A DNA stretch of 42,840 nucleotides from IMG/VR virus record IMGVR_UViG_3300045988_034730, one strand, 5' to 3'. Position numbers and translations under genes: made by a program. Each line of letters starts with the position of its first letter. Within the stretch, counting starts at the first letter, position 1. Below are positions 1-21,888 of the stretch, one piece after another. This DNA is from a virus. The notes under the pieces are model-generated. The model was not told the DNA's origin. It made no database searches and saw only the letters and a program-made list of their open reading frames with translations.

Positions 1-228
1 GTGGGTGTACGGCGATGCGCGGGTGTACGGCAATGCGCGGGTGTACGGCAATGCGATGGTGTCCGGCGATGCGATGGTGTCCGGCGATGCGCGGGTGTCC
101 GGCGATGCGCGGGTGTACGGCAATGCGATGGTGTACGGCAATGCGCGGGTGTCCGGCGATGCGATGGTGTACGGCAATGCGCGGGTGTACGGCAATGCGC
201 GGGTGTCCGGCGATGCGCGGGTGTTTAG
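1..228. repeat. About 12 tandem copies of a degenerate 18-bp unit, gcgcgggtgtacggcaat and variants. The array is coding and continues from 42788 across the junction.
   Basis: The 18-nt periodicity is directly visible. Variants are cgg/atg, tac/tcc and aat/gat. Confidence 0.9.
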
Positions 229-3465: not shown

Positions 3466-4163
3466 GAGAGAGCATGGTATTCTACCAGTCCTTCGCAAAG
3501 GCGATCAAGCTCATGCCGAAGGACAAACAGTTAGACGCCTTGTGGGCGATCATTGATTATGGACTGGATGGCACAGAGCCGGATCCAGAGACAGACGTTT
3601 ACACGATGATGGTTTTCGAGATGGCAAAGCCGCAGATTGACTCGAATGTCAAACGGAAGGTGAATGGATCATCCGGCGGCAGACCGAAAACCTATGGTTA
3701 TGAAGATGAAAAACCAGTGGTTACTGAAAGTGAAAACCATAGGTTATCGGATGAAAAACCTAATGTAAATGTAAATGAGAATGTAAATGTAAAGGAAAAT
3801 GATAAAAAGAAAGACACTAACGTGTCTAAAGAAAAGCGCTTTGCGCCACCCACCCCGGAGAATGTGAGTGAATATTGCCGGGAAATGGGATACACGCATG
3901 TTGACGCTAATAAGTTCGTCGATACATTTTCTGCAAAGGGATGGAGAGTCGGGAAGACCAATACCCCCATGAAGGACTGGAAAGCGTCCGTAAGGAACTG
4001 GGAACGGCAAGAGAAAGAGTGGAGGGAGGAAAAGACCGCCAAAACTCAGGACAAGTCATCGAACCGGTTCAAGAATTTCACAGAGCGGCAGTATAACCAG
4101 TCTGACTATGACAAGATCATTTTCGGCGAGCTTGCGAAACCAAGAGGGGAGGAACACACATGA
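3462..4163 (+). CDS. Putative phage replication-organiser protein with a conserved phage C-terminal domain resembling Phg_2220_C/DnaD.
   Basis: ATG at 3462 sits after GAGGAGGTGGAAGA. The C-terminal stretch, ...NVSEYCREMGYTHVDANKFVDTFSAKGWRVGKTNTPMKDWKASVRNWERQ, looks like the C-terminus of phage replisome-organiser proteins. An internal low-complexity linker is also present. Confidence 0.45.
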   Translation: MRESMVFYQSFAKAIKLMPKDKQLDALWAIIDYGLDGTEPDPETDVYTMMVFEMAKPQIDSNVKRKVNGSSGGRPKTYGYEDEKPVVTESENHRLSDEKPNVNVNENVNVKENDKKKDTNVSKEKRFAPPTPENVSEYCREMGYTHVDANKFVDTFSAKGWRVGKTNTPMKDWKASVRNWERQEKEWREEKTAKTQDKSSNRFKNFTERQYNQSDYDKIIFGELAKPRGEEHT

Positions 4164-4435
4164 AATACCTGTATGACGTTCTCGACACAGATACCGGAGA
4201 GCGCGTGGTTGAGAGCGGCACCGCGAAAGATGTCGAGAGCGCAATTGGAATTGAAAAACGCCGGATCGCCATGTATGTAAAGACTGGGAATAAGTTTCAC
4301 CGGCGCTATCTGATCGAGAGTGTAGGTGTCATTGATACTACCGAAGGGGCGCAGTTATGGTGTAACCGCTTTGCACGCGAATGGGACAAGGCGAGGGAAA
4401 AGGTCATGGGAGGTCTGAGAGATGCTGTTAAGTAA
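4160..4435 (+). CDS. hypothetical protein
   Basis: 91-aa ORF preceded by GGGGAGGAAC. Confidence 0.5.
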   Translation: MKYLYDVLDTDTGERVVESGTAKDVESAIGIEKRRIAMYVKTGNKFHRRYLIESVGVIDTTEGAQLWCNRFAREWDKAREKVMGGLRDAVK

Positions 4436-4757
4436 AGACGAGGCAAAGCTCCAGCGGTACACGCAGGCGCAGATTTTTATGGACAGGATCGCGCTTGCCG
4501 CGCATAAGGTTAAGCCAGGAGATAAGCTGACGGTATGGGCGCTCAAATGCAGTACAACAGAAGCTTGCAATAACAGGACGGAAGTCCACAGAAAAGCGAA
4601 GGTGATTGCGGTTTATCCACATTTTGTCCACGCGAGACTGGTGAACCCGCATCCTGGGCGGACTGGATGCGAAGAGAGCTTCCGTTGGGATGATATCGTG
4701 AAGTGGAATAAGTATTTATGGGAGGGCGCACAGAATGAAAGTGTTAGTCGCATGTGA
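4422..4757 (+). CDS. hypothetical protein
   Basis: 111-aa ORF. Confidence 0.45.
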   Translation: MLLSKDEAKLQRYTQAQIFMDRIALAAHKVKPGDKLTVWALKCSTTEACNNRTEVHRKAKVIAVYPHFVHARLVNPHPGRTGCEESFRWDDIVKWNKYLWEGAQNESVSRM

Positions 4758-5394
4758 AGAGTCACAGACCGTTTGTAAGGCGTTTCGCGACTTAGGGCAT
4801 GAAGCGTATAGCTGCGACATCAAAAAGCCGTCTGGCGGTCATCCAGAGTGGCACATCCTCAATGACGCACTCAAAGTTCTGGCGGGGGGTCAAATCGTGA
4901 CTATGGACGGCGCAACGCATGACGTTGGCAAGTGGGATTTGCTCATTGCGCATCCACCCTGCACTTATCTGTCAAACGCTGGTGCACGCCACCTCTGGAA
5001 AGGGCATGAGTTGCAGGCCGACCGTGTGATGCATGGGATTCTTGGCAGAGATTTGTTTATGCATTTTTGGTGGGCTGACATTCCCAAAATATGTGTAGAA
5101 AATCCAGTGCCCAGCAAAGTGTTTTGCCTGCCTAAGCATACACAGACTGTGCAACCGTATGAATATGGACATCCGTACAGCAAGAAAACCCGCCTTTGGC
5201 TGAAAGGACTTGAACCGCTACATCCAACAGATATCGTTGAACCTGTAGCAACGTGGTGCCCGTCTGGCTCGTACTCTCACAAACATGGAGAGTGCCATAA
5301 AGGGATGTTTACAACCGACAGAGCAAGAAACCGGGCAAAAACGTTTCCGGGGATCGCTAAGGCAATGGCAGAACAGTGGGGAGGTAAGGCATGA
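4735..5394 (+). CDS. DNA cytosine-C5-methyltransferase-like protein that lacks the canonical FxGxGG AdoMet-binding loop.
   Basis: Carries motif IV-like DLLIAHPPCTYLSNAG (a Pro-Cys catalytic dipeptide) and ENV-like CVENPVPS. The N-terminus reads MKVLVACEESQ where the Gly loop is expected. At 219 aa it is only about half the size of a typical methyltransferase. Confidence 0.45.
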   Translation: MKVLVACEESQTVCKAFRDLGHEAYSCDIKKPSGGHPEWHILNDALKVLAGGQIVTMDGATHDVGKWDLLIAHPPCTYLSNAGARHLWKGHELQADRVMHGILGRDLFMHFWWADIPKICVENPVPSKVFCLPKHTQTVQPYEYGHPYSKKTRLWLKGLEPLHPTDIVEPVATWCPSGSYSHKHGECHKGMFTTDRARNRAKTFPGIAKAMAEQWGGKA

Positions 5395-5570
5395 ATGATG
5401 AGATGGCAACCACAGCAGATTTGCGGGATCTAAGAAGACTCATTCACGAGGTCACAGGATACCGGCTTTTGACAAGGAGTGAAGTCCATCAGATCACCAT
5501 AATTTTGGAGCACGCAGTAGATCGTGAGCTTGCAAAAGCGGTGATGGAACAGGATGGTGGTAAGGAATGA
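5391..5570 (+). CDS. Small hypothetical protein of 59 aa.
   Basis: ATG at 5391 overlaps the upstream stop (ATGA). GGGGAGGTAAGGC lies upstream. Translation is MNDEMATTADLRDLRRLIHEVTGYRLL... Confidence 0.35.
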   Translation: MNDEMATTADLRDLRRLIHEVTGYRLLTRSEVHQITIILEHAVDRELAKAVMEQDGGKE

Positions 5571-5746
5571 TTAGATTTTTAATTGGGGTTTGGCTCATCG
5601 TGATGGCGATAGGCGCAGCTATGTCAGTCATGATTGCTTGTGACGATGAGGACGTAAAAGGCGCAGTTTTATTTCTGACAACTCTGGGTTTAACATCTGC
5701 GATAGCTGAATTTGGCTTATGGATGATTATGGCAGCAGGAGGATGA
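5567..5746 (+). CDS. Small membrane protein of 59 aa; tandem paralogue 1.
   Basis: Translation is MIRFLIGVWLIVMAIGAAMSVMIACDDEDVKGAVLFLTTLGLTSAIAEFGLWMIMAAGG. Hydrophobic, with an acidic CDDED/EDD loop. Confidence 0.35.
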   Translation: MIRFLIGVWLIVMAIGAAMSVMIACDDEDVKGAVLFLTTLGLTSAIAEFGLWMIMAAGG

Positions 5747-5751
5747 GATAG

Positions 5752-5910
5752 ATGAGAGTAATGTTTGGCTACTGGACCGTATGTATAACAGTGATTTCCT
5801 TCATCCTTTGCATTGCGGAAGACGATATAAAAGAGAAACTGCTTATAGTGGGAGCCACTGGGATATTTCTGGCCATGCTATTATTTGGCCTGTGGTTGAT
5901 AGGAGGGTGA
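5752..5910 (+). CDS. Small membrane protein of 52 aa; tandem paralogue 2.
   Basis: Translation is MRVMFGYWTVCITVISFILCIAEDDIKEKLLIVGATGIFLAMLLFGLWLIGG. The junction sequence GGAGG(A/G)TGAGATAGATGAGAG recurs at the ends of both paralogues. Confidence 0.35.
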   Translation: MRVMFGYWTVCITVISFILCIAEDDIKEKLLIVGATGIFLAMLLFGLWLIGG

Positions 5911-5915
5911 GATAG

Positions 5916-6422
5916 ATGAGAGATCTTAATGAAATCTTAAGCAACAAGCACATATGGGGACATAGTATCATGTTCCCGATGCATACGGCATGGATCAAGC
6001 TGCCAGACTGCGGCACATGCAGCGTAATCTGGAGCGAGAACGAGGCTGGAATGGAGCACGTGAGCATTTCCCCGAAGAAAAAGTTAAGAATCCCCACATG
6101 GGATGACATGTGCGTTCTTAAGGAAACCTTTTTCCGGGACAGTGAAGAAGCTTACGAGATACACCCCAAAAAGAGCGAGTACGTCAACGTGGTTGAGAAC
6201 TGCTTACACCTCTGGAAGCCGATCGGGCAGGAGCTGGAGGATTTGATCGAGATCAATGGGGAGATGAAAGCCATACTCATGAAGCTTGCGAAAGTAGAGC
6301 GGGATAATGAGGAGCTTAGAGAAAAACTTCGGCAGATTGATGGACCAGTGCAAGAAAGTAATATACGAAAGATCACGCTAATGGACGGCAGGAACGCATA
6401 TGCTTGTGAAGTCGAACCGTGA
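5916..6422 (+). CDS. hypothetical protein
   Basis: 168-aa ORF. The start overlaps the upstream repeat junction. Confidence 0.5.
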   Translation: MRDLNEILSNKHIWGHSIMFPMHTAWIKLPDCGTCSVIWSENEAGMEHVSISPKKKLRIPTWDDMCVLKETFFRDSEEAYEIHPKKSEYVNVVENCLHLWKPIGQELEDLIEINGEMKAILMKLAKVERDNEELREKLRQIDGPVQESNIRKITLMDGRNAYACEVEP

Positions 6423-6437
6423 GGAAGGAGAAAAATC

Positions 6438-6569
6438 ATGGAAAAAGAACGCTGTGACAACTGCTTGTATGAGTACGCCTGTGACTGGAGCAAGGCAGGA
6501 GAAGAGTTGAAATGCGAGGATTGGAAGCCGGAGGTGATGAGTAATGGATCTCGAACAGAAGAGCATTGA
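6438..6569 (+). CDS. Small Cys-rich protein of 43 aa.
   Basis: GAGGAAGGAG ribosome-binding site. Translation is MEKERCDNCLYEYACDWSKAGEELKCEDWKPEVMSNGSRTEEH. It overlaps the start of the next gene. Confidence 0.3.
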   Translation: MEKERCDNCLYEYACDWSKAGEELKCEDWKPEVMSNGSRTEEH

Positions 6570-7395
6570 GAGAATCAAGACGGCATCAGAGATGAGCTTA
6601 CACCACTATGGCAAGCCGCTGATCTGCACTTATTCCGGCGGAAAAGACAGTGATGTGATGTTAGAGCTTTTCAAAAGATCCGGTGTTCCGTTCGAGGTTT
6701 CACACGGCCTGACAACCGTGGACGCGCCTCCGACAGTGCGACACATCAAAGAGACGTTTGCACGGCTTGAGGAGTCAGGAATCACGGCAACGATCCACCA
6801 CCCGAAGATGACGATGTGGCAGCTTATTCCGCATAAGAAGATGCCACCTTCCAGAATGAAACGTTACTGTTGCGAGGAGTACAAGGAAAACGTCAATCCC
6901 AATCGCTTTGTGGCTACTGGAGTACGATGGGCCGAGAGCAACAAGAGAAAGAATCGTCAGGACATCGAGCCGAAGGAGAAAAAGGCAGCAGAAAAGCTCT
7001 TGCTGATGAGCGAAAATGACAGAAAAAGAGCGCTGATTGAGACGTGCAAGATTAAGGGAAATATGATCGTCAATCCGATTGTCGATTGGCTGGACAGTGA
7101 CATCTGGGAATACTACTGGAATGAATGCCCATCCCACAATGATCTGTACGAAATGGGATACTACCGCGTTGGCTGTATCGGGTGCCCAATGGCCGGAAAA
7201 AAGCACAGATACAAGGAATTCTCCGATTTCCCTACGTATCAGCGGGCCTATATAAGAGCATTCGGTAAGATGCTGGAGGCGATCCATGCGGCGGGAAAAG
7301 AGACACGATGGAAGAACGCAGACGATGTGTTCCGCTGGTGGATGGAAGACACCAACGTAGAAGGGCAGATATCAATGTTTGACGATACAGAATAG
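6544..7395 (+). CDS. Phosphoadenosine-phosphosulfate-reductase-family protein (PP-loop ATP pyrophosphatase; DndC-like).
   Basis: PP-loop motif SGGKDS near the N-terminus. A C-terminal Cys cluster, YRVGCIGCPMAGKK, is also present. Confidence 0.7.
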   Translation: MDLEQKSIERIKTASEMSLHHYGKPLICTYSGGKDSDVMLELFKRSGVPFEVSHGLTTVDAPPTVRHIKETFARLEESGITATIHHPKMTMWQLIPHKKMPPSRMKRYCCEEYKENVNPNRFVATGVRWAESNKRKNRQDIEPKEKKAAEKLLLMSENDRKRALIETCKIKGNMIVNPIVDWLDSDIWEYYWNECPSHNDLYEMGYYRVGCIGCPMAGKKHRYKEFSDFPTYQRAYIRAFGKMLEAIHAAGKETRWKNADDVFRWWMEDTNVEGQISMFDDTE

Positions 7396-7400
7396 AAAAA

Positions 7401-7437
7401 TAGCGGCGGACCACCCGCCAAGATGATTCCGCCGCTA
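7401..7437. other. Stem-loop with 9-bp arms, tagcggcgg / ccgccgcta.
   Basis: Perfect 9-bp inverted repeat with a 19-nt spacer. A runs flank it on the + strand, so T runs flank it on the - strand. It lies between the PAPS-reductase-like gene and the recombinase gene. Confidence 0.4.
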
Positions 7438-7498
7438 AGAAAATAAATCGCTTAAGTCCATTATAGCCGACTTGAGCGCCAAAATCAAGGAGGTACTT

Positions 7499-8536
7499 AT
7501 GAGTAACATTAAATCCGATATTATCAATAATGTAACCGTTACAATGTCCGTATATATCCAGGACAGAGAAGCCCTTGATGTATTGGAGCTTGTGTTGGCT
7601 AATGAGCTTATGAAGGTGAATGTCGAGGAGATCACGACTCTTCCGGCAGAGGTTAAAAGTAGCGTGGATCAGCGGAATGCGTATCTGCTGCAGCTCTTTA
7701 TGATCCAGAAACGCCACCTAAAAAAGCGCACGATTGAGGCGTATATGGGATCTGTACGCCGCTTGGTGCTGGCTACAGGGAAACGTCTGGATCTTATCGA
7801 CACGCTGGATATTGATTGGTATCTGGCACAGTATGAGAAGCACAAAGGCGTGCGGACGGAGCAGATCACGAACCGCACCTACAACAACGAGCGCCGGAAC
7901 CTCTCGGCATTCTTTACGTGGATGCGGAAGTCAAAGATCATACAGGACAACCCCGTAGATAATGTGGACGCGAAAAAGGTTGTTATGGGGAAAATCGACT
8001 ACTATAGCCGGGAGGAGATCATTGAGCTGCGGGACGCGTGCAAAACGAAGCGGGATCGTGCCATTATCGAGGTATTCCGTTCCACGGGTGCGCGTGTAGG
8101 CGAGATCGCAGATATCCGCCTGGATCAAGTGGATATGCATACCGGGGACATCCCGATCATTGGGGAAAAGGGCGGGCGTGCCAGAACATTATATCTGGAT
8201 GCGGAGGCGAGATATTATCTTGCAGCGTATCTTGATGAGAGGAAGGATAACAGCCCGTACCTCTTTACCCAGACCGTAGGCGCAAAGCGAGGGAGGATGG
8301 GGACGGCAACGTACCGGACTATCATGAGAAAAATTGGCAAGCGTGCGAAGATCCAGTGCCGCGTGTATCCGCACAAGATGCGTAAGACACTGGGAATGGA
8401 TCTCAAGCAGCACGGCCTTGATATCGGAATTATCCAAGAGATCCTCGGACACGCGTCACCGGCAGTCACCAGTATGTATTACGCTCAGTCCACTACAGAA
8501 ACGCTGAGAAGCGTACGCCAGAGGTTGAGCGCATAA
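7499..8536 (+). CDS. Tyrosine recombinase (XerD/integrase family); the second recombinase of the element.
   Basis: The C-terminal catalytic region reads ...RSTGARVGE...HKMRKTLG...LGHASPAVTSMYY, matching the R..K..H-R-H..Y tyrosine recombinase signature. AAGGAGGT ribosome-binding site 7 nt before the ATG at 7499. Confidence 0.8.
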   Translation: MSNIKSDIINNVTVTMSVYIQDREALDVLELVLANELMKVNVEEITTLPAEVKSSVDQRNAYLLQLFMIQKRHLKKRTIEAYMGSVRRLVLATGKRLDLIDTLDIDWYLAQYEKHKGVRTEQITNRTYNNERRNLSAFFTWMRKSKIIQDNPVDNVDAKKVVMGKIDYYSREEIIELRDACKTKRDRAIIEVFRSTGARVGEIADIRLDQVDMHTGDIPIIGEKGGRARTLYLDAEARYYLAAYLDERKDNSPYLFTQTVGAKRGRMGTATYRTIMRKIGKRAKIQCRVYPHKMRKTLGMDLKQHGLDIGIIQEILGHASPAVTSMYYAQSTTETLRSVRQRLSA

Positions 8537-8547
8537 GGAGGTATAAG

Positions 8548-9222
8548 ATGGATAAAAAGAAAGTAATAGAACGATTTAAAAATCACAAAGCAACATTCAC
8601 AGATTATGGCAATATCAAAGTTCTGGATTTCGAGGAGCCGGGAAGAATAGAGTATCGCATTCGATTCCTTTTCGAAGAAGATCATTACATTCTCCACATC
8701 ACTGGAGACCTCGGGGAGTTGACTGCGAGCAACTATAGCAACATGACATATGAAGGATTTACTGAGTTTGTCAATAATACCGGGTATTTCAAGGAGAAAA
8801 TTGACTGCATGAACCGCCCACTGTACTTTTGGGATGAAAACGAGGCAAGGCAGGAACTTGAAAAGAAATTAGAAGAAGCAGGATATGACATAGAGGAAAT
8901 AAAATCTGATATTGATGAAATCATGAATGGATTTGATGATGGTCATGGAATTACTCCAGACGGGCAAGAAAAACTTGAGGATTTAATATCTGATAGTTGG
9001 GAGTTTGCCGGAGAACTGGGGAAAAGAGATACCGGCATAATAGATATATACATGATTGCGTTTAAACTCGCTAAGAAGCAACTTACTGATAAGGAGAATT
9101 TAAGATTGGAGGATGTTACGAGATGTCCATATTGTAACTACATCCCGAAATGCAACGAGCAGACCTGCAAGGATTGTAAGGTCTATGAGGATTTCTTAGA
9201 TGATGCAGATGACCTTTATTAA
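8548..9222 (+). CDS. Hypothetical protein with a C-terminal CxxC...CxxC zinc ribbon.
   Basis: TAAGGAGGT ribosome-binding site. The C-terminus reads ...RCPYCNYIPKCNEQTCKDCKVYE. Confidence 0.5.
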   Translation: MDKKKVIERFKNHKATFTDYGNIKVLDFEEPGRIEYRIRFLFEEDHYILHITGDLGELTASNYSNMTYEGFTEFVNNTGYFKEKIDCMNRPLYFWDENEARQELEKKLEEAGYDIEEIKSDIDEIMNGFDDGHGITPDGQEKLEDLISDSWEFAGELGKRDTGIIDIYMIAFKLAKKQLTDKENLRLEDVTRCPYCNYIPKCNEQTCKDCKVYEDFLDDADDLY

Positions 9223-9243
9223 GATTTAAGGAGGAGAATCTAT

Positions 9244-9630
9244 ATGAAAAAATTATTCGCAAGTGTACCGATGAGAGGAAGAACAGAGGAAGAGATCCGC
9301 GAGAGCTTCGCAAAAATGAAGAGAATTGCGGAAGCATATGAGGGTGAGAGTTTGGAACTGATTGATACATGGATTGCGGAGGAACCGCCGGAAGGAGCAA
9401 AGACCAGCGCTGTGTGGTATCTGGGAAAATCACTGGAGATGCTGAGCACGGCAGATGTATACATCGGTGTGAGTACATATGGATATTTCCCAGGATGCTG
9501 CGTCGAAGAGGAAGTTGCGCAGCTGTACAAAATCAAGCGATATCATGTTGACGCAACGGACATCATCCCGAACTGGAATGAGCTTATGCAGAGACTGAGT
9601 GCGCTTGAAAGACCTACATTAGGACTATAG
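9244..9630 (+). CDS. Hypothetical protein, possibly DUF4406-like with a nucleoside-deoxyribosyltransferase-like fold.
   Basis: AAGGAGGAG ribosome-binding site. The N-terminus, MKKLFASVPMRGRTEEE, weakly resembles that family. Confidence 0.4.
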   Translation: MKKLFASVPMRGRTEEEIRESFAKMKRIAEAYEGESLELIDTWIAEEPPEGAKTSAVWYLGKSLEMLSTADVYIGVSTYGYFPGCCVEEEVAQLYKIKRYHVDATDIIPNWNELMQRLSALERPTLGL

Positions 9631-9655
9631 GAGGAAAGTTGGTAGGTGATGGCAA

Positions 9656-9889
9656 ATGAAGGTAGATCATATAGAGACGTGCGTGTGCATAGACCATGAG
9701 CCGACAGCAGCAGATAGCGTATATTACGGGATGCCGCAGCTCAAAGTAACAAAGGGGCAAGAATGGAGCGCTTTCTGCCCTAATTGCGGACGAGGCGGAT
9801 GTCTCGATTTTAAATCGCAGTATCTTGCCCTGGAGCATTGGAATAAGATGCAGAAAATGCTAAAAAACCTTGATGATATATTAAATTAA
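9656..9889 (+). CDS. Hypothetical Cys-containing small protein.
   Basis: 77-aa ORF with CxC...CPNCGRGGC. Confidence 0.4.
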   Translation: MKVDHIETCVCIDHEPTAADSVYYGMPQLKVTKGQEWSAFCPNCGRGGCLDFKSQYLALEHWNKMQKMLKNLDDILN

Positions 9890-9906
9890 GATTGGAGTGA
9901 CAGAGA

Positions 9907-10239
9907 ATGGGAAAAGCAATCCTCAGAACAAAAGAAATGCTCGACAGATGTGCTATCCAAGGAAAGGACCACGAACTTTGGAAAAACATTTATGAGCTTA
10001 TGGACGGTGAAATCGCTTACGTGTACAAGAGTAAGGCAGAGGAAGGAAAGTATGTCTTTTGTGGGCTGTCTGATCCAGAAAAGAATAAGGATCTGTTTTT
10101 CTTGATCGAACAGGATAGTGTAATCGGCAGATATATTGATGATTGGGAAGAGTTTACGGTAGATTGGGAAGCCGGACGCTACGAAATGGATGGGTGCATT
10201 TATTTAGATGCAGGAAATATTACCCAAACTGAAATTTGA
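9907..10239 (+). CDS. hypothetical protein
   Basis: 110-aa ORF preceded by GGAGTGACAGAGA. Confidence 0.45.
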   Translation: MGKAILRTKEMLDRCAIQGKDHELWKNIYELMDGEIAYVYKSKAEEGKYVFCGLSDPEKNKDLFFLIEQDSVIGRYIDDWEEFTVDWEAGRYEMDGCIYLDAGNITQTEI

Positions 10240-10253
10240 GAAAGGAGAAAGAA

Positions 10254-10520
10254 ATGTTACAGATTAGAGCAAAAAAACTGACAGAAGGGTATGCAGTCAA
10301 CGTGGACTACATCGACATCGACACATACACCGATGTACTTAATATGCTGTGCGCGATCAACGAGGAGATCGTCACGACATTACATGCTAAGCAGCCAGAG
10401 AGCATGACTCTCCACAAGTCTGATTACTATGGTGGAGTCATCGCAATCCTAAACAAGCTCAGACAGCAGGACGAGGAGGCGAGAGCCGATGGGGTACAAG
10501 TACAACAGCAGCCGGATTAA
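10254..10520 (+). CDS. hypothetical protein
   Basis: ATG at 10254 sits after AAAGGAGAAAGAA. The ORF track's upstream start at 10236 lacks a ribosome-binding site. Confidence 0.4.
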   Translation: MLQIRAKKLTEGYAVNVDYIDIDTYTDVLNMLCAINEEIVTTLHAKQPESMTLHKSDYYGGVIAILNKLRQQDEEARADGVQVQQQPD

Positions 10521-10728
10521 GTGCCCATACTTCAGACGGGTGATCCGGACGCGCAAGGGGCAGTTTATCGGAATCGAGTGCGATCCGATGCAGGACGATA
10601 TCGGTTTTGACGTGGGGCAGGTGGTGCGGGTGCGGACATCGGGAGATCTCAAGGACTACACGGAGCTGTTTTGCAAGGACTGTTTCGAGAGCTGCCCGTA
10701 TTATAAGATTCATGGCAACGGTACATAG
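10489..10728 (+). CDS. Hypothetical Cys-rich small protein.
   Basis: 79-aa ORF with CPYF...C...CKDCFESCPYY. It overlaps the upstream gene. Confidence 0.35.
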   Translation: MGYKYNSSRIKCPYFRRVIRTRKGQFIGIECDPMQDDIGFDVGQVVRVRTSGDLKDYTELFCKDCFESCPYYKIHGNGT

Positions 10729-10759
10729 GGATCAGGAGTTTATCTTCTGGTCCTTTTTT
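10729..10759 (+). terminator. Candidate intrinsic terminator at the early/late boundary.
   Basis: Stem ggatcag / ctggtcc (6 of 7 positions pair) with an 11-nt loop, followed by tttttt immediately after the TAG stop. Confidence 0.5.
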
Positions 10760-10825
10760 CTGCAAATAGGGCGGTTTCTCTGCGATGTATATATCAACTA
10801 TACTTTCACGCAGGAGGGATGCACT

Positions 10826-11248
10826 ATGGAGACTGTAAGTAAATCGCCAGAGCTGCGGAAGCTGGGCGATAAGATTATAAAAGAGCACGCAGACCTACAC
10901 TGGATCAAGGACAGCCGGATCCGCATTGGATACTGCGAGAGCGATCTTGATAAGCGCAAGGGTGGTGGACTCGTCTATGCAGAGTGCCACAAGGTACGCC
11001 CACTCTATCAGGCATATGTACCGTATGACTTTATCATCGTTTTCTATACGCCAAACGCCGATCTTATGACAGATGCACAGCGCGATATCCTTATGTATCA
11101 TGAGCTACTCCACGTAGGCATGGACCCCACTGGCTCCCTACGCCTTGTCCCGCATGATATCGAGGATTTCAAAGCGATCCTGGATCAGTACGGTATGCTG
11201 TGGGATATGCCGGAGGAGCTGAGAGGAGCTGATCTGGATGGCACGTAA
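10826..11248 (+). CDS. Putative HExxH zinc metallopeptidase-like protein.
   Basis: ATG at 10826 sits after CAGGAGGG. HELLH motif in ...ILMYHELLHVGMD... The long upstream extension in the ORF track has no ribosome-binding site. Confidence 0.5.
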   Translation: METVSKSPELRKLGDKIIKEHADLHWIKDSRIRIGYCESDLDKRKGGGLVYAECHKVRPLYQAYVPYDFIIVFYTPNADLMTDAQRDILMYHELLHVGMDPTGSLRLVPHDIEDFKAILDQYGMLWDMPEELRGADLDGT

Positions 11249-11558
11249 CCCAAAGCAGGACGCAAACCTCAAAAAAATTGACAGCACGAGCCGAGCGAGA
11301 GAGCTGGGGAGCAAGGGCGGCAAGGCAACGGCGGCTAATAAGCGGGCGATTAAGAGCTTTAAGCAGGCACTGGTGGACGGACTGACTGAGCAGGAGCAGG
11401 AGATCATGCTAAAAGCCCTCAAGCGCAATGCCATGCGCGGCAATCTGGCGGCGTTGGAGTTTTTGCTCAAAGTAGAGGGACAGCATCCAGATCAGGAGCA
11501 GACTGCCGACAACTCCATCAACATCACGATCAGCGGAGGTGACGAGTATGCAGATTGA
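11238..11558 (+). CDS. Putative terminase small subunit.
   Basis: 106-aa basic N-terminus. The gene lies immediately upstream of the terminase large subunit and overlaps it. Confidence 0.45.
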   Translation: MARNPKQDANLKKIDSTSRARELGSKGGKATAANKRAIKSFKQALVDGLTEQEQEIMLKALKRNAMRGNLAALEFLLKVEGQHPDQEQTADNSINITISGGDEYAD

Positions 11559-12939
11559 TCTCGGCACACCAAACGTCAAGCAGCAGGCATTTTTGAGAGA
11601 TACACACAAGCATGTGGGTTTTGGCGGCGCACGAGGCGGCGGTAAGTCCTGGGCGATCCGGGCAAAAGCCACGATCCTCTGCACTAAGCACCCTGGCATC
11701 AGCGTGCTCATCATCCGTAAGACATATCCAGAGCTACTCGCCAATCATATCAAGCCGTTTAAGCAGCTACTCCATATCGGTTTACAGGGCAATCCAATCC
11801 GATTTAACGAGAGTAAAAAGGAGATCAGCTTCCCCAACGGCAGCACAATCCGCTTTGGATACTGCAATCACGAGGCAGATGTAGACAGATATCAGGGTAC
11901 AGAGTGCGATATCCTCTTTTTAGATGAGGCCACACAGCTCTCAGAGGATCAGATCAAGGCACTGGTGGCATGTGTGCGTGGTGCCAACGCCTTCCCAAAG
12001 CGGATCTACTACACCTGCAACCCCGGCGGCAAGGGGCACGGCTACATCAAGCGCCTTTTTATCGACAAGGAGTATCTGGATGGCGAGTATGCAGAGGAGT
12101 ACAGCTTTATCCAGAGCCTTGTATACGACAACGCCGCGCTGATGGAGAGCAACCCGGACTATGTAAGACAGCTTGAGGCACTGCCAGAAGCTAAGCGTAA
12201 GGCGTGGCTTGAGGGTGACTGGGACAGCTTCGTCGGTCAGGTATTCACGGAGTGGCGCAACGATCCGGCGCACTATCAGGATAGATTATGGACGCACGTC
12301 ATTGATGACTTCGAGATCCCGCGCGACTGGAAGATCTACCGCGGCTTTGACTGGGGATACAGCAAGCCGTTCTCTGTCGGTTGGTTTGCGGTCGATCACA
12401 GCGGCAGGATTTATCGCTTTAAGGAGTGGTATGGCTGCACAAGGCAGGCAAACACCGGTTTACAGCTCACTGTGCAGGAGGTAGCGGCTAAGATTGCGGA
12501 GATGGAGCGCACTGATCCAGCATTAAAAGGCCGCAAGATCATCGGCATCGCTGATCCGGCTATCTGGGGCAGTACCACAGGAGAGAGTATCGAGGATATG
12601 ATGGAGCGGTGCGGCGTGTTTTTTAACAAGGGCGATCACACAAGGCTTGCCGGGCTGATGCAGTTCCACTATCGGCTGGCTTTTGATGCTTACGGCTTGC
12701 CGATGTTTTACTGTTTCCGCACATGTAAGCAGTTCATTCGTACGATCCCGCTGCTGATCTACGACGAGAAGCATGTGGAGGATATTGACACGGAGCTTGA
12801 GGATCACATCTATGATGAGACACGGTATGTTTTCATGGATCATCCGCTCAATCCACGCAAAAACGTCAAGCGGTATACGGCAAGTGATCCACTTCCGCCG
12901 GACGATCCGCTTAACATCATAAGGCCAGTAGGCAGATAA
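11548..12939 (+). CDS. terL: Terminase large subunit.
   Basis: Walker A motif GFGGARGGGKS and an ATPase-plus-nuclease architecture of about 463 aa. ATG at 11548 sits after GGAGGTGA. Confidence 0.85.
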   Translation: MQIDLGTPNVKQQAFLRDTHKHVGFGGARGGGKSWAIRAKATILCTKHPGISVLIIRKTYPELLANHIKPFKQLLHIGLQGNPIRFNESKKEISFPNGSTIRFGYCNHEADVDRYQGTECDILFLDEATQLSEDQIKALVACVRGANAFPKRIYYTCNPGGKGHGYIKRLFIDKEYLDGEYAEEYSFIQSLVYDNAALMESNPDYVRQLEALPEAKRKAWLEGDWDSFVGQVFTEWRNDPAHYQDRLWTHVIDDFEIPRDWKIYRGFDWGYSKPFSVGWFAVDHSGRIYRFKEWYGCTRQANTGLQLTVQEVAAKIAEMERTDPALKGRKIIGIADPAIWGSTTGESIEDMMERCGVFFNKGDHTRLAGLMQFHYRLAFDAYGLPMFYCFRTCKQFIRTIPLLIYDEKHVEDIDTELEDHIYDETRYVFMDHPLNPRKNVKRYTASDPLPPDDPLNIIRPVGR

Positions 12940-12949
12940 GGAGGATATT

Positions 12950-14803
12950 ATGGTAAAAATGGACGGGCAGACGATCCCAGACGGCACAGGAGAGGCACAG
13001 GGATCCACGGAGAGCATTGGCAAGCGTGTGATTGACGCTACGGCGATCCGCACAGCGCACGAGACACTGCAAAAGTACATGGCAGGCAAGCAGGAGCTGG
13101 ATAAGAGGATCATCGACAACGAGGACTGGTGGAAGCTTCAGCACTGGCGCAATTTCCATCAGAACGAACTGGATCGGAAGGAGCAGAGCACATCAGCGTG
13201 GCTGTTTAACTCCATCGCCAACAAGCACGCTGATGCGATGGACAGCTATCCGGTTCCGGCAGTGCTGCCGAGGTCACTGGATGATGAGGGCACGGCTAAG
13301 ACACTGTCCTCTATTCTCCCGGCAATCTTTGATAACTGCGATTTTGAGCAGATCTACTCTGATAACTGGTGGGATAAGCTCAAAAACGGCTGTGCGATCT
13401 ACGCAGTCATGTGGGATCAGAGCAAAAATCACGGGCAGGGAGACATCTCCATCAGAGGCGTGGACATGCTGTCCTTTTACTGGGAGCCGGGCATACAGGA
13501 TATACAGGATTCCAAAAACATCTTTGTCCTTGCGCTAGCAGACAATGACGCGCTTGAGGCGCAGTATCCGCAGTTACAGGGCAAGTTATCGGGCAATTCT
13601 ATCGACAAAAAGCAGTATCACTACGACGATGCCGTGGACACGACTGGCAAATCTATCGTGGTGGACTGGTATTACAAGGTACAGACGGAGACCGGCCCGC
13701 TTGTCCATTATGTCAAGTATGTAGACGAGACAGTTCTCTTTGCCAGTGAGGACACGCCGGGGTATGAGGACGGCATATACGATCACGGCAAATATCCTTT
13801 TGTTCTTGATGTTTTGTACGCCGAGAAAGGCACCCCAGCAGGTTTTGGCTATGTGGATATCTGCAAATCCCCGCAGGAGTACATTGATCGCCTTGGTATG
13901 GCACTTCTGCTTAATGCGGAGGAGGCAGCACAGCGCAGATACTTTGTTAAGGACGGCTGTCAGGTCAACGAGGAGGAGCTTTTAGATATCCATAAGCGCG
14001 TGATCCATGTGGCAGGATCGCCCAACGATGACAATATCCGCTCATTCGATACACCGGAGCTGTCTTCCGTATATCTGTCCGTCCTTCAGGATAAGGTCAA
14101 TGAGCTTAAGGAAACGAGTGCCAACCGCGACTTTAACCAGGGCGGCACAGCGAGCGGTGTCACGGCGGCAAGTGCAATCACAGCCTTGCAGGAGGCGGGC
14201 AACAAGACGAGTAGGGACCTTATCAAGAGTTCTTACCGCTGTTACACGCAGATCTGCATCATGGTGATTGATCTCATGCGGCAGTTTTACGATATCAGCC
14301 GCACATTCCGTATCACAGGCGAACAGGGCACCCCGAAGTATGTGCAGTTTAACAACGGCGGCTTAAAGGGCGGAGAAAAGAGCGTGGCCGGACAGGACTT
14401 CAGGACAAAAGAGCCAATCTTTGACGTGATCCCGTCCGCGCAGAAGCAGAATCCGTACAGCAAGCTCAGTCAGAACGAGATGGCGCTTCAGTTTTATAAT
14501 GCCGGATTCTTTAATCCTCAGCTTGCCGATCAGGTACTCCAGTGTATCGACATGATGGATTTTGATGGCAAGGAGAAGGTACGGCAGGGAATCCAGCAGA
14601 ACAGCACGATGTATCAGCAGATGCAGCAGCTTACCCAGATCGCTACAATGGCGGCGCAGGCACTCGCCCAGAAGGGTGACTCCCGTGTATTGATGGCAAT
14701 GCAGCAGATGGGGCTTGGAGCGGATCAGACACAGCAGATGGCACAGGGACAGCAGACACAGGCGGAGGTGGATATCAATGACAACAGTCAGAATCAAAAT
14801 TAA
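12950..14803 (+). CDS. Portal protein.
   Basis: 617-aa protein directly after the large terminase. TAAGGAGGA ribosome-binding site. Gln-rich C-terminus. Confidence 0.65.
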   Translation: MVKMDGQTIPDGTGEAQGSTESIGKRVIDATAIRTAHETLQKYMAGKQELDKRIIDNEDWWKLQHWRNFHQNELDRKEQSTSAWLFNSIANKHADAMDSYPVPAVLPRSLDDEGTAKTLSSILPAIFDNCDFEQIYSDNWWDKLKNGCAIYAVMWDQSKNHGQGDISIRGVDMLSFYWEPGIQDIQDSKNIFVLALADNDALEAQYPQLQGKLSGNSIDKKQYHYDDAVDTTGKSIVVDWYYKVQTETGPLVHYVKYVDETVLFASEDTPGYEDGIYDHGKYPFVLDVLYAEKGTPAGFGYVDICKSPQEYIDRLGMALLLNAEEAAQRRYFVKDGCQVNEEELLDIHKRVIHVAGSPNDDNIRSFDTPELSSVYLSVLQDKVNELKETSANRDFNQGGTASGVTAASAITALQEAGNKTSRDLIKSSYRCYTQICIMVIDLMRQFYDISRTFRITGEQGTPKYVQFNNGGLKGGEKSVAGQDFRTKEPIFDVIPSAQKQNPYSKLSQNEMALQFYNAGFFNPQLADQVLQCIDMMDFDGKEKVRQGIQQNSTMYQQMQQLTQIATMAAQALAQKGDSRVLMAMQQMGLGADQTQQMAQGQQTQAEVDINDNSQNQN

Positions 14804-20175: not shown

Positions 20176-21606
20176 ATGATCATCTTAAGAAGCAGATCTC
20201 TTATTATTCCGACTGACGAGTACAATCTTGGCAATGACTATGACACTAATACAGCGACAAGAGTTTTTCAACTTGAGCGTGTGATGGAAGGCATAGACCT
20301 TGCCAATCTCATGTTTAAGCTGGATCTCACCTACGCAGACGGTACAAGCGATACGCTTGCACTCGATAGCGAAGTCACAGACGATAAGATCAACCTTACA
20401 TGGACCGTGACAAAGAATCAGCTTCATGTTCCGGGAACTGTCGTGGTACAGATCCGTGCGCTGAATGTGGACGGAAATATGAAGTGGACTTCCTACATCG
20501 GTGCGTTCTTTGTTGAAGCGTCTATGTTTGGCAGTGCTGATTATAGCGGAAAGCTCACCGAAGTCGAGCAGTTTGAGGTTGCGATTAAATCAGAAAAAGA
20601 ACGTGTACAGAACGAAAAAGCCAGACAGGACGCAGAAGCAGAGAGAGTACAAGCCGAAGCGGAGCGCAAGCCTGCCGAAGAAGAAAGGAAAACTGCCGAA
20701 GCGGAACGCAAATCTGCCGAGACGGTACGTTCCAATGCAGAGACAGCGCGAGAATCGGCGGAAACAGAACGTGAAAAGTGGTACAATTCAGCAAAGACAA
20801 ACTTTGATGCGGCAATAGCTTCAGGCGATAAGGCAGAGGAGATTGCAAACTCATTGGAGACCAATGTGGAGGCCAACATGAAAGCGGCAGCGGCTTCTGC
20901 AACGGCAGCGGCTGGGTCTGCATCAGCGGCAGCAGGATCAGCGAACGAAGCGAAGCAGTATAGCCAGAACTGGTCGGCATTAGATCAGAGAGTAACGAAA
21001 AACGCCGACGACATCGCTGCCACAAATAACAATTTGAGTAAGAGATTATTAGTTGGAAACAATATTGCATCTGCTGATCTCTCAAATGATATGCCTGATG
21101 AACGATTTGGCACATTATCTATGCGTTTTAGTGACGGAACAATAAATCAATTAATACTCTTAAAGGACACAGCGAATGTTTCCATTTTTAGAGATAATAA
21201 ATGGATAGAACAATATTGGTTTGCAACAACGTCAATGTTGTCCGATTATGTTCCCAAGTCAGATCTCGTTGCTTCCTCTTCGGACATACAGTCAAAACAA
21301 AACATTACTGACAGCTCATACATTAAATTTTATAAATACGGAAAGATTGTCGTTGCGCATATTCAAATAACAACAACATCGAATTTATCTGGATACGATA
21401 CGCTAAAAGTGGGAGTTGCCCCGAATGGATTCAAACCATTGTATGAATGCAGAAGCGTCGTTCTTATGCAACAAACCAATGTATCGAGAATTTTAGCATT
21501 CACAACATATGGCGATATTAATTTATGGAACTGGTCATCGGATAGTTCTATCACAACTCCATCCGGTAGCGCATTAAATGGTTTCGCGGTGTATTGCGTT
21601 GCTTAA
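20176..21606 (+). CDS. Tail fibre / receptor-binding protein. It has a constant N-terminal part, a coiled-coil stalk and a variable C-terminal cassette.
   Basis: N-terminal anchor domain, then Ala/Glu/Arg-rich heptads AEAERKPAEEERKTAEAERKSAE. After base 21042 the coding sequence becomes AT-rich and encodes a beta-rich C-terminal domain. Confidence 0.55.
   Translation: MIILRSRSLIIPTDEYNLGNDYDTNTATRVFQLERVMEGIDLANLMFKLDLTYADGTSDTLALDSEVTDDKINLTWTVTKNQLHVPGTVVVQIRALNVDGNMKWTSYIGAFFVEASMFGSADYSGKLTEVEQFEVAIKSEKERVQNEKARQDAEAERVQAEAERKPAEEERKTAEAERKSAETVRSNAETARESAETEREKWYNSAKTNFDAAIASGDKAEEIANSLETNVEANMKAAAASATAAAGSASAAAGSANEAKQYSQNWSALDQRVTKNADDIAATNNNLSKRLLVGNNIASADLSNDMPDERFGTLSMRFSDGTINQLILLKDTANVSIFRDNKWIEQYWFATTSMLSDYVPKSDLVASSSDIQSKQNITDSSYIKFYKYGKIVVAHIQITTTSNLSGYDTLKVGVAPNGFKPLYECRSVVLMQQTNVSRILAFTTYGDINLWNWSSDSSITTPSGSALNGFAVYCVA
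21024..21041. repeat. Left copy of an 18-bp perfect inverted repeat, aaataacaatttgagtaa. It lies inside the fibre gene and encodes NNNLS.
   Basis: Exact reverse-complement match to 21860-21877. The position within the codon frame is the same in both copies. Confidence 0.8.
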
Positions 21607-21888
21607 TCAGATCTTTTTCCATGACAGAGGCGAACCATCCAATGTATACATTCCCGCGTTCGAGACCCCGATTACTAACCAGTTTGAAGCAAAAAAGAAC
21701 ATAGTATTTTTTTCTGGTAACAGGTCTGCTAATTGCCAATCGATGTATCCGATATAAAATTTTGAGTTTTGCCTTGAAAGGTCAACAATATCTTGCAAGG
21801 TTTGATTTGACTTGATAGTACCATAAAAAGACACTTTTTTATTAAGATCTGTCTGTACATTACTCAAATTGTTATTTACATAACACAT
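21607..21888 (-). CDS. Promoterless, opposite-strand alternative C-terminal fibre cassette; a candidate second receptor-binding domain.
   Basis: 93-aa ORF with no ribosome-binding site. An in-frame TGA lies 9 nt upstream of its ATG. Its stop abuts the + fibre stop with zero spacing. It begins MCYVNNNLS, sharing the NNNLS junction with the fibre gene. Confidence 0.4.
   Translation of the reverse strand: MCYVNNNLSNVQTDLNKKVSFYGTIKSNQTLQDIVDLSRQNSKFYIGYIDWQLADLLPEKNTMFFFASNWLVIGVSNAGMYTLDGSPLSWKKI
21860..21877. repeat. Right copy of the 18-bp inverted repeat. On the - strand it encodes NNNLS.
   Basis: ttactcaaattgttattt is the reverse complement of 21024-21041. Confidence 0.8.

What the first reader, a model, noticed from the sequence alone, without database searches (positions are those of the whole stretch)
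7499..8536. A second tyrosine recombinase sits in the early region, 30 kb from attP; it is a candidate for the fibre inversion or another rearrangement.
The element already has a canonical integrase next to attP (38473-39507). This additional XerD-like recombinase has the full R..K..H-R-H..Y catalytic set and its own strong ribosome-binding site. It is flanked upstream by a stem-loop (7401-7437) with T runs on the opposite strand. Tyrosine recombinases that act on distant inverted repeats are known (the RecV-type invertases of Clostridia are one example). It could catalyse the inversion proposed at 21024-21877, resolve dimers, or be the remnant of a separate mobile insertion.
Basis: inference. 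Interest (0 to 1): 0.55.

Follow-up and report, generated by a model that had tools for sequence, protein, structure and literature searches.

The report
Distant invertase for phage tail-fibre switch
This gut phage carries a second, intact DNA-flipping enzyme gene 12.5 kb from a flippable piece of its tail-fibre gene, and comparison with related phages points to it as the enzyme that swaps the fibre's host-recognition tip, which is a known kind of trick in an unusual layout.

Summary
Window 7499-8536(+) encodes a 345-aa tyrosine recombinase, here called rec2. It has a complete catalytic set (R199, K224, H292, R295, H318, Y327), an AGGAGG ribosome-binding site and an upstream hairpin. It is separate from the integrase at 38473-39507.

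Rec2 is not an insertion remnant. Homologues (48-99% identical) lie 2-4 kb upstream of the large terminase gene in about 80 Lachnospiraceae phage contigs. It scores below NCBIfam's curated cut-offs for XerA, XerC and XerD.

The proposed inverton is real. A perfect 18-bp inverted repeat (21024-21041 / 21860-21877, AAATAACAATTTGAGTAA, coding NNNLS in frame in both arms) brackets an expressed 188-aa and a silent 84-aa fibre C-terminus.

Four lines link rec2 to it:
- The window has no other recombinase except the integrase.
- Rec2's nearest relatives outside its clade (32% identical) sit beside fibre shufflons with the same kind of site.
- Rec2-clade phages carry such invertons.
- A same-backbone phage with a non-invertible fibre lacks rec2 at the syntenic position.

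No exact flipped copy of this inverton was found, so catalysis is inferred (confidence about 0.7). It is a distally encoded variant of the Rin-type phage shufflon.

The parts
7499..8536 (+). rec2: a 345-aa tyrosine recombinase without an arm-binding domain, proposed to be the fibre invertase. It has an N-terminal extension of about 55 aa, a SAM-like core-binding domain and a catalytic domain.
7487..7492 (+). AGGAGG ribosome-binding site, 6 nt upstream of the rec2 ATG.
   Evidence: Read directly from the sequence.
7401..7437 (.). Hairpin with a 10-bp stem between the PAPS-reductase gene and rec2. It is terminator-like only on the minus strand, and its role is unknown.
20176..21023 (+). Constant N-terminal part of the putative tail-fibre / receptor-binding gene. 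Residues 1-288 run to the end of the crossover site.
21024..21041 (+). Left crossover site (site2), AAATAACAATTTGAGTAA. It lies inside the fibre ORF and codes (T)NNNLS(K).
21042..21606 (+). The currently expressed variable C-terminal cassette (188 aa, KRLLVGNNIAS...). The region is low in GC.
21607..21859 (-). Silent alternative C-terminal cassette (84 aa after NNNLS). It has no promoter and no ribosome-binding site, and it reads towards the fibre gene.
21860..21877 (-). Right crossover site (site2), a perfect inverted copy. It is in frame as (V)NNNLS(N) in the minus-strand ORF 21607-21888.

Best explanation
Rec2 is a phage-encoded tyrosine DNA invertase that acts at a distance. It is made from the early region and binds the two 18-bp sites that lie in opposite orientation, one inside the fibre gene (21024-21041) and one at the head of a silent cassette (21860-21877). 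It exchanges strands within them and flips the 854-bp segment.

The flip replaces the 188-aa C-terminal tip of the 476-aa fibre with an alternative 84-aa tip, giving a predicted 372-aa protein. The phage population would then carry two receptor specificities.

What is shown: the enzyme is intact; the sites are in frame in both arms; many different tips are joined to this fibre at exactly this point in nature; and recombinases of this family are associated with sites of this kind.

What is inferred: that rec2 itself is the catalyst, when it is expressed, and that the tips determine host range.
For: 1. The inverton anatomy fits. The perfect 18-bp inverted repeat occurs only twice in the window, where 0.07 copies are expected. 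Both arms code NNNLS in frame.

2. The same fibre N-terminus (residues 1-288, 94-100% identical) is fused at NNNLS to at least 40 different C-termini. The window's C-terminus is fused to at least 8 other N-termini.

3. Contigs L210 and L211 have flanks 99-100% identical to the window, with related cassettes in the opposite arrangement.

4. The window has only two recombinases and no serine invertase. Contig 020849 shares rec2 at 97% and the identical site core, but its integrase is only 32% identical and its late genes are unrelated.

5. Thirteen loci with site2 invertons show no recombinase within 6 kb, so a distal enzyme is the norm.

6. Rec2's best relatives outside its clade are the L259 and L213 recombinases (175 and 171 bits, 32% identity over residues 3-329). 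They lie next to fibre shufflons whose sites are TAAATAGTAATTTA and TAAATAATAATTTGCAC. The next relatives are recombinases embedded in other fibre shufflons and in hsdS shufflons. All share an N-terminal extension of about 55 aa.

7. Rec2-clade loci carry site2-like inverted-repeat pairs in L031, L034, L047, L048, L050, L056, L057 and L241. In L055, L058, L059, L060, L061, L063 and L066 the left arm is present just before the fetched DNA ends.

8. The same-backbone contig 094392 has a 930-aa fibre with no inverted repeat and has no rec2 at the syntenic position.

9. The Logan contigs L205 and L272 end 31 and 28 nt after the start of the site, as expected if the assembly graph branches there.
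Against: - No sequence with this exact segment flipped was found. The silent cassette appears only as short silent ORFs in the protein database, and L210/L211 carry diverged alleles of the cassettes.
- The shufflon-embedded relatives are only about 30-32% identical to rec2.
- Phage phiCs5676-1 has a rec2 homologue at 50% identity but no recognisable site2 pair.
- L075 shows no site in the part of its fibre that could be read.
- Contig 057092 has an inverton, but rec2 is not in the 1 kb upstream of the usual neighbouring gene, and the rest of that contig could not be fetched.
- Much of the co-occurrence could reflect shared ancestry rather than function.
- No plus-strand promoter was predicted upstream of rec2.
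Confidence: 0.7

Rival explanations
1. Rec2 has a different early-phase job, such as resolving replication multimers in the manner of Cre or Xer, or another rearrangement. The fibre segment would then be flipped by a host recombinase or by the phage integrase.
For: Rec2 is XerA/XerD-like in fold. It occupies a conserved place in the early region, far from the inverton. phiCs5676-1 keeps a homologue without an evident inverton. Lachnospiraceae hosts encode many tyrosine recombinases; that statement rests on general knowledge and was not tested here.
Against: No dif- or lox-like site was found near rec2 in the window or its relatives; the recurrent repeats upstream in some relatives look like a promoter plus a terminator. 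Rec2 falls below the curated cut-offs for XerA, XerC and XerD. Its closest relatives outside its clade sit beside shufflons. The integrase differs (32% identity) between two phages that share rec2 and the same site. Rec2 is missing from the same-backbone phage that lacks the inverton.
Confidence: 0.15
2. The segment no longer inverts. NNNLS would be a conserved structural joint at which fibres are reshuffled by homologous or illegitimate recombination between phages, the minus-strand cassette would be a relic, and rec2 would be unrelated to it.
For: No exact flipped allele was recovered. Identical cassettes occur in unrelated backbones, bounded at the site, which shows exchange between genomes rather than flipping. 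The motif is conserved at the protein level across many fibres.
Against: The two arms are identical at all 18 nt, including synonymous positions and 3 nt outside the NNNLS codons. A promoterless cassette in inverted orientation headed by the site recurs in many backbones. Related phages have recombinases directly beside the same kind of repeats. L210/L211 show the reciprocal arrangement with 99-100% identical flanks. Contigs break at the site.
Confidence: 0.1
3. Rec2 is a second integrase, or the leftover of a separate mobile element inserted into the early region.
For: It is annotated 'integrase' in PHROGs and in phiCs5676-1. A hairpin lies upstream.
Against: It holds a conserved syntenic position 2-4 kb upstream of the terminase gene in about 80 contigs with different late modules. 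The 1-kb stretches covering the gene (GC 0.475 and 0.466) fall within the range of most other stretches of the window. Apart from the fibre inverton, the repeat scan listed only imperfect, widely scattered pairs. Pfam finds no arm-binding domain above threshold (Int_N at 17 bits against a cut-off of 27). The catalytic residues are conserved across the clade, so the gene is under selection.
Confidence: 0.05

Closest known systems
Rin shufflon of Bifidobacterium and Eggerthella prophages (Mavrich et al. 2018, PMC6109161; PMC8778435)
   Same: A phage-encoded tyrosine recombinase without an arm-binding domain, distinct from the phage integrase. Short crossover repeats lie inside the receptor-binding gene and ahead of promoterless alternative C-terminal cassettes. 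The outcome is switching of the C-terminus.
   Different: rin lies directly beside its cassettes, whereas rec2 is 12.5 kb away in the early region. The sites differ: 8-11 bp (TTCCCTAACCC or ttccgtat) against the 18-bp AAATAACAATTTGAGTAA. The hosts are Actinobacteria rather than Lachnospiraceae. There are several cassettes there and two here. Sequence homology to Rin was not tested. Mavrich et al. noted a second inverton with no adjacent recombinase and remarked that an invertase supplied in trans had not been reported in phage genomes.
Recombinase-embedded fibre shufflons found here (L259, L213; L220-L222, L178, L157, L096)
   Same: The recombinases are homologous to rec2 over their full length (30-32% identity) and share the N-terminal extension. 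L259 and L213 use the same kind of site (AAAT-RRY-AATTT, coding N-N/S-N-L) at fibre C-terminal junctions.
   Different: In these loci the recombinase gene sits inside or next to the shufflon. L220 and L178 use a different site, CTCAATTGTATAGTGA (coding TQLYS), 8 codons upstream of NNNLS. None has been characterised experimentally.
Phase-variable type I restriction-modification hsdS shufflons with an embedded tyrosine recombinase (seen here in L212 and L214)
   Same: The recombinase is homologous (29-31% identity) and shares the N-terminal extension. The inversion is intragenic and swaps a specificity domain. The crossover core, ATAAATGATAATTTA, resembles site2.
   Different: The target is a restriction specificity subunit, not a fibre. 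The recombinase is embedded between the hsdS copies.
Gin/G segment of Mu, Cin of P1, Min of p15B
   Same: The biological logic is the same: inversion swaps the C-terminal part of a tail fibre and changes host range. This comparison rests on established knowledge and on PMC6109161.
   Different: Those systems use serine recombinases encoded next to the segment, together with an enhancer and Fis. The window has no resolvase-family protein.
RecV of Clostridioides difficile and Mpi of Bacteroides (invertases that act on distant sites)
   Same: A recombinase gene placed far from the inverted repeats it acts on.
   Different: Those are host chromosomal enzymes that control several loci (Mpi is a serine recombinase). 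Rec2 is phage-borne, and only one target pair exists in this genome. Homology to RecV was not tested.
XerC/XerD/XerA chromosome-dimer resolvases
   Same: They give the best structural and profile matches: XerA 4a8e at 1.3e-25, XerD 1a0p at 2.4e-15, and NF040815 at 158.9 bits. The two-domain architecture without an arm-binding domain is the same.
   Different: Rec2 is below every curated equivalog cut-off (220, 329.6 and 335 bits). It has an extra N-terminal extension. No dif-like site was found, and the gene is phage-encoded in an early operon.

Membership tests
Tyrosine recombinase superfamily (Pfam PF00589) | Catalytic domain scoring above the Pfam gathering threshold. | tested here: met
   112.1 bits against a cut-off of 27.1.
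Tyrosine recombinase superfamily (Pfam PF00589) | Catalytic R-K-H-R-H/W-Y residues present. | tested here: met
   R199, K224, H292, R295, H318 and Y327 align to XerA. Five are invariant or nearly so and Y327 is present in 119 of 126 relatives.
XerC/XerD (and archaeal XerA) dimer resolvases | Score above the NCBIfam equivalog cut-off. | tested here: not met
   XerA 158.9 against 220, XerD 116.5 against 329.6, XerC 112.6 against 335.15.
XerC/XerD (and archaeal XerA) dimer resolvases | A cognate dif-like site (two arms of about 11 bp around a 6-8 bp spacer), usually one per replicon. | tested here: inconclusive
   No conserved palindromic site was seen near rec2 in the window or its relatives. 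A single site elsewhere could not be excluded.
Rin-type phage receptor-binding-protein shufflon | Tyrosine recombinase without an arm-binding domain, distinct from the phage's own integrase. | tested here: met
   Only the SAM-like and catalytic domains score above threshold. Int1 gives no BLASTP hit to rec2.
Rin-type phage receptor-binding-protein shufflon | Short crossover repeats inside the receptor-binding gene and ahead of inverted, promoterless C-terminal cassettes. | tested here: met
   18-bp sites at 21024 and 21860, in frame in both arms, with a silent minus-strand cassette.
Rin-type phage receptor-binding-protein shufflon | The recombinase gene flanks the cassette array. | tested here: not met
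   Rec2 ends at 8536 and the first site starts at 21024. No recombinase lies within 6 kb of site2 invertons in 13 loci.
Rin-type phage receptor-binding-protein shufflon | Alternative orientations observed among genomes or reads. | tested here: inconclusive
   L210/L211 show the reciprocal arrangement with 99-100% identical flanks, but their cassettes have diverged. Contigs break at the site. No exact flipped allele was found.
Rin-type phage receptor-binding-protein shufflon | Sequence homology to Bifidobacterium Rin. | not tested
   No Rin sequence was available in the collections that were searched.
Rci / R64-type shufflon | Homology to Rci, asymmetric 19-bp sfx sites, and rci adjacent to the segments. 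| not tested
   The R64 record is not in the plasmid collection. The only observation is that the 18-bp shared core is similar in length to sfx (from general knowledge).
Serine invertases (Gin, Cin, Hin, Min) | A resolvase-family catalytic domain encoded beside the invertible segment. | tested here: not met
   No resolvase-family hit among the larger window ORFs that were scanned, nor among the 25 of 27 families listed for 82 ORFs around 13 related invertons.
FimB/FimE-type tyrosine DNA invertases (NF007370, NF007371) | Score above the NCBIfam cut-off. | tested here: not met
   36.9 and 36.1 bits against cut-offs of 221 and 222.
Shufflon-associated clade defined here (recombinases embedded in fibre and hsdS shufflons) | Full-length homology that includes the N-terminal helical extension of about 55 aa. 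| tested here: met
   BLASTP scores of 130-175 bits over residues 3-329. The neighbour-joining tree, built without support values, groups rec2 with L213.

The most novel reading that the evidence does not exclude
The rec2 family and the NNNLS-coding site may form a shared, trans-acting standard across Lachnospiraceae phages. Besides flipping the resident segment, the recombinase would recombine sites on different co-resident phage genomes, so that receptor-binding tips move between unrelated phages as cassettes, somewhat as in an integron. This would explain why at least 40 tips are found on one fibre stem, why one tip is found on at least 8 stems, why a 572-nt cassette is 100% identical in two unrelated backbones and is bounded at the site, and why one contig has two invertons with the same site.
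Probability: 0.25. Interest if true: 0.8.

Novelty: new variant of a known kind. Interest (0 to 1): 0.55.

Why it matters
Switching of phage tail fibres by DNA inversion is a classic mechanism, and tyrosine-recombinase versions (the Rin shufflon) are known in Actinobacteria prophages, where the enzyme sits beside its cassettes.

Here the likely enzyme is a conserved early-region gene that acts about 12.5 kb away, or 25 kb in one relative. It occurs in a large group of temperate phages of human-gut Lachnospiraceae (Enterocloster, Lacrimispora, Hungatella, Clostridium scindens and others).

If this reading is right, three things follow:
- Many 'second integrase' or 'XerD' annotations in gut phage genomes are host-range switches.
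- The 18-bp site marks the exact joint at which receptor-binding tips are exchanged in nature, which is useful for predicting or engineering host range.
- Assembly breaks in these fibre genes become understandable.

The experiments that would decide the question are simple.

Tried and rejected
- **Scan for the exact 18-mer in viral contigs.** Most hits were chance matches to an AT-rich word. It became useful only after filtering for inverted pairs.
- **Patterns specific to the window's fibre flank.** They found nothing in viral contigs or in metagenome contigs, so this exact phage is absent from those sets. The right-flank pattern found only L111.
- **Apparent inversion between L084 and L171.** It was only a difference in locus orientation and was discarded.
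- **L096, L157, L178 and L220 as recombinases using the NNNLS site.** This was my first reading. Their repeats are in fact centred on a different site, CTCAATTGTATAGTGA, so they support family function but not site identity.
- **L212 and L214 as fibre shufflons.** They are hsdS restriction-specificity shufflons.
- **The recurrent GAATATTGATAGTTGG inverted repeats upstream of rec2 homologues.** I considered them as a cognate site. They look like a promoter plus a terminator hairpin around small genes, and the window has none.
- **Cross-matching contig lengths between fibre hits and rec2 hits.** This was uninformative.
- **Search with the silent cassette for a flipped full-length fibre.** Only silent copies were found.
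- **The g15408 look-up and the R64 rci fetch.** Both failed.
- **Walking further along contig 057092.** No new DNA was returned.
- **An inverton in phiCs5676-1.** Only an 11-nt in-frame match was seen, which is too weak to count.
- **Not run.** Structure prediction and the large representative-protein search, because they would not separate the rival explanations.

Full report
**The object.** The window behaves as a complete, circularly permuted temperate phage genome of 42.8 kb. The same 18-nt tandem repeat runs off both ends.
- The genes run from an early region (Erf, NinB, DUF6291, a DNA methyltransferase, DUF7694, a PAPS reductase) through the large terminase and a P22-type portal.
- Then come internal-virion and tail-fibre genes, a 3972-aa polyvalent protein, scaffold and major capsid genes, and an endolysin.
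- On the minus strand lie an integrase, a metalloprotease and a repressor.
- Identical copies occur in human-gut metagenome contigs (L202-L204).
- Homologues of the gene under study are found in Enterocloster, Lacrimispora, Hungatella, Clostridium asparagiforme, Robinsoniella and Roseburia genomes. The host is therefore a member of the Lachnospiraceae.

Window 7499-8536(+) encodes a 345-aa protein, here called rec2.
- It has a Phage_integrase catalytic domain (3.2e-32) and an N-terminal SAM-like core-binding domain.
- The catalytic residues R199, K224, H292, R295, H318 and Y327 align to archaeal XerA. Five are invariant or nearly so in 126 relatives, and the tyrosine is present in 119.
- AGGAGG lies 6 nt before the ATG.
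- The hairpin at 7401-7437 is real (z = -4.5 for the intergenic fold) and has a T-run only on the minus strand.
- The integrase at 38473-39507 is unrelated at the BLASTP level.

**What rec2 is not.**
- It is not a remnant of an insertion. In about 80 IMG/VR loci, homologues at 48-99% identity occupy the same slot, 2-4.5 kb upstream of the large terminase gene. The late modules of these loci range from this podovirus-like type to the siphovirus phiCs5676-1 of Clostridium scindens.
- It is not XerC, XerD or XerA. Those are the best profile and structure matches, but all fall far below the curated cut-offs: 158.9 against 220, 116.5 against 329.6 and 112.6 against 335.
- The FimB/E models also fail.

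**The inverton is real.**
- The arms at 21024-21041 and 21860-21877 are a perfect 18-mer pair, AAATAACAATTTGAGTAA. They are the only two copies in the window, where 0.07 are expected.
- The left arm lies in codons 283-289 of the 476-aa fibre-like ORF (...AATNNNLSKRLLVG...). The right arm lies in codons 4-10 of a 93-aa minus-strand ORF (MCYVNNNLSNVQTD...). NNNLS is therefore in frame in both.
- Inversion would give a 372-aa fibre with a different 84-aa tip.
- The segment is low in GC, 0.356.

**The joint is used widely in nature.**
- More than 40 database proteins share residues 1-288 at 94-100% identity and then diverge completely right after NNNL(S). The window's tip (KRLLVGNNIAS...) is also found on at least 8 unrelated N-termini, always after NNNLS.
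- Contigs L210 and L211 have flanks 99-100% identical to the window. A homologue of the window's silent cassette is expressed there, and a homologue of the window's expressed cassette (90% over its first 225 nt) lies silent in the inverted position.
- Two Logan contigs stop 31 and 28 nt after the site begins, as expected from a k = 31 assembly graph that branches there.
- An exact flipped copy of this very segment was not found.

**The link to rec2.**
- **Elimination.** The window has two recombinases and no resolvase-family protein.
- **Mosaic genomes.** Contig 020849 shares the early region with the window (rec2 97%). Its late region is unrelated, and its integrase is only 32% identical. It still carries an inverton with the same core, GTAAATAACAATTTGAGT, about 25 kb from rec2.
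- **Distal is normal.** Thirteen loci with this kind of inverton show no recombinase within 6 kb. One contig, L219, has two such invertons 6 kb apart.
- **Family function.**
  - Outside its own clade, rec2's best matches are the L259 and L213 recombinases (175 and 171 bits, 32% identity over residues 3-329).
  - These lie immediately beside fibre shufflons. L259 has four sites reading TAAATAGTAATTTA (coding NSNL) that span the lysin and holin genes up to a fibre gene. L213 has a pair reading TAAATAATAATTTGCAC (coding NNNL).
  - The next relatives are recombinases embedded in other fibre shufflons. These are L220-L222 (a myovirus prophage), L178, L157 and L096. They use CTCAATTGTATAGTGA, coding TQLYS, 8 codons upstream of NNNLS.
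  - After those come the recombinases of hsdS shufflons, L212 and L214, whose core is ATAAATGATAATTTA.
  - All share an N-terminal extension of about 55 aa.
  - A rough neighbour-joining tree groups the rec2 clade with L213. It places the canonical integrases outside.
- **Co-occurrence.**
  - In rec2-clade loci whose fetched DNA reaches far enough, site2-like pairs sit in the fibre gene. They read AAATAGCAATTTAG, TTAAATAGCAATTTA or AATAGTGATTTAA. The loci are L031, L034, L047, L048, L050, L056, L057 and L241.
  - In L055, L058, L059, L060, L061, L063 and L066 the left arm is present just before the locus ends.
  - L049 has a one-mismatch version, and L075 has none that could be seen.
- **A natural control.** Contig 094392 has the window's backbone (portal 98%). 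It carries a 930-aa fibre with no inverted repeat and no silent cassette, and it has no rec2 or PAPS-reductase gene in the syntenic slot.

**Weak points.**
- Catalysis by rec2 is inferred, not shown.
- The shufflon-linked relatives are distant.
- phiCs5676-1 keeps a homologue at 50% identity without a recognisable inverton. An IS200-like transposase sits just after its tail genes.
- Contig 057092 has an inverton whose arms match at 17 of 19 positions. Rec2 is not where expected there, and the remainder of that contig could not be retrieved.
- Many genome loci stop short of the fibre region, and shared ancestry inflates the co-occurrence.

**Mechanism proposed.**
- Rec2 probably acts as a tetramer, as tyrosine recombinases generally do (established knowledge).
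- It would synapse the two inverted sites and exchange strands through a Holliday junction within the shared 18 bp, inverting the 854-bp segment.
- Only 14-18 bp are shared between partner sites. The sites would therefore be asymmetric, which is how Rci avoids deletions (from general knowledge; a lead, not a test).
- Expression from the early operon would diversify progeny during replication. Expression in the lysogen is possible but has no support, since no promoter was predicted.

**Comparison with the literature.**
- The closest described system is the Rin shufflon of Bifidobacterium and Eggerthella prophages, where the tyrosine invertase flanks its cassettes.
- The authors of the Bifidobacterium study noted a second inverton without a neighbouring recombinase. 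They remarked that an invertase supplied in trans had not been reported in phage genomes.
- Tail-fibre inversions in general are well documented.
- I found no description of this early-region recombinase family or of the NNNLS site.

**Verdict.** The system is a new variant of a known kind and is of moderate interest.

Noticed in passing
window 21918-22427 (+); L219 4783-5292 and 18620-19138: A Tad2-like (Thoeris anti-defence 2) gene lies immediately downstream of the fibre inverton (Pfam 2.8e-25). In L219 a Tad2-like gene also lies directly after a second site2 inverton. In L264 the gene is missing at this position.
   Followed up: partly
window 23042-34960 (+): A single 3972-aa ORF lies between the tail genes and the scaffold gene. 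Precomputed Pfam hits on the identical product include an Eco57I-like methylase (weak), ResIII, a helicase domain and LPD38. It looks like a large polyvalent protein, possibly an injected anti-restriction protein.
   Followed up: no
window 1-254 and 42756-42840: An 18-nt tandem repeat (GTACGGCGATGCGCGGGT-like, at least 13 units) runs off both ends of the window. The ends therefore join inside one repeat-coding ORF, and the genome is circularly permuted.
   Followed up: no
proteins P0001-P0120; L084 6629-7200 against L195 788-1359: NNNLS is a general module joint: one fibre stem carries at least 40 tips and one tip occurs on at least 8 stems. A 572-nt cassette is 100% identical in two contigs whose flanks are unrelated, and it ends at the site. 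This indicates exchange of cassettes between phage genomes at this point.
   Followed up: partly
L220-L222 10700-13900; L178 2860-6200; L157; L096: A second fibre shufflon type has the recombinase embedded and four or more sites reading CTCAATTGTATAGTGA (coding TQLYS[D/E]). In some fibres this site lies only 8 codons upstream of NNNLS (TQLYSDLNTTNNNLS), so one fibre may be a substrate for two systems.
   Followed up: partly
L212 (MT835621) 4026-13057; L214 (MT838471): These records, deposited as 'Bacteriophage sp.', carry type I restriction-modification loci with hsdS shufflons. An embedded recombinase is homologous to rec2, and the crossover core ATAAATGATAATTTA resembles the fibre site.
   Followed up: partly
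L028, L031, L033, L034, L045, L057, L228, L231, L232, L257, upstream of the rec2 homologue: Inverted copies of GAATATTGATAGTTGG recur around small genes 0.2-7 kb upstream of rec2 homologues. In L045 one copy overlaps a -35/-10-like sequence and the other forms a terminator hairpin. They look like boundaries of independently transcribed small genes. The window has none.
   Followed up: partly
L265 10001-12793 and L266 (contig 3300045988_094392): A phage with the window's backbone (portal 98%) has a 930-aa non-invertible fibre. Its early region lacks both the PAPS-reductase gene and rec2 and holds small cysteine-rich ORFs instead.
   Followed up: yes
L001 (phiCs5676-1) 13699-14565: This Clostridium scindens phage has a rec2 homologue at 50% identity but no site2 pair. 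Directly after its tail genes lie minus-strand ORFs, including an IS200-like transposase. This may be a disrupted former cassette region.
   Followed up: partly
L218 (Terrisporobacter phage TPELB_ph1) 17645-18640: An annotated 'integrase' (29% identical to rec2) sits between the last tail gene and the holin, while a 527-aa protein also annotated 'integrase' occupies the lysogeny module. No clear inverted repeat was found around it.
   Followed up: partly
window 7460-7488 (-) and 7404-7420 (-): In the gap before rec2 there is a minus-strand promoter-like site (TTGATT-17-TATAAT, 10 of 12 matches) followed by a minus-strand terminator-like hairpin. This could be a short antisense transcript or chance.
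   Followed up: no
L068 863-1873 and L070 485-1405: Two contigs carry a second, distant family member (about 30% identical to rec2) roughly 8 kb upstream of their rec2-clade gene. No inverted repeats were found near it.
   Followed up: partly
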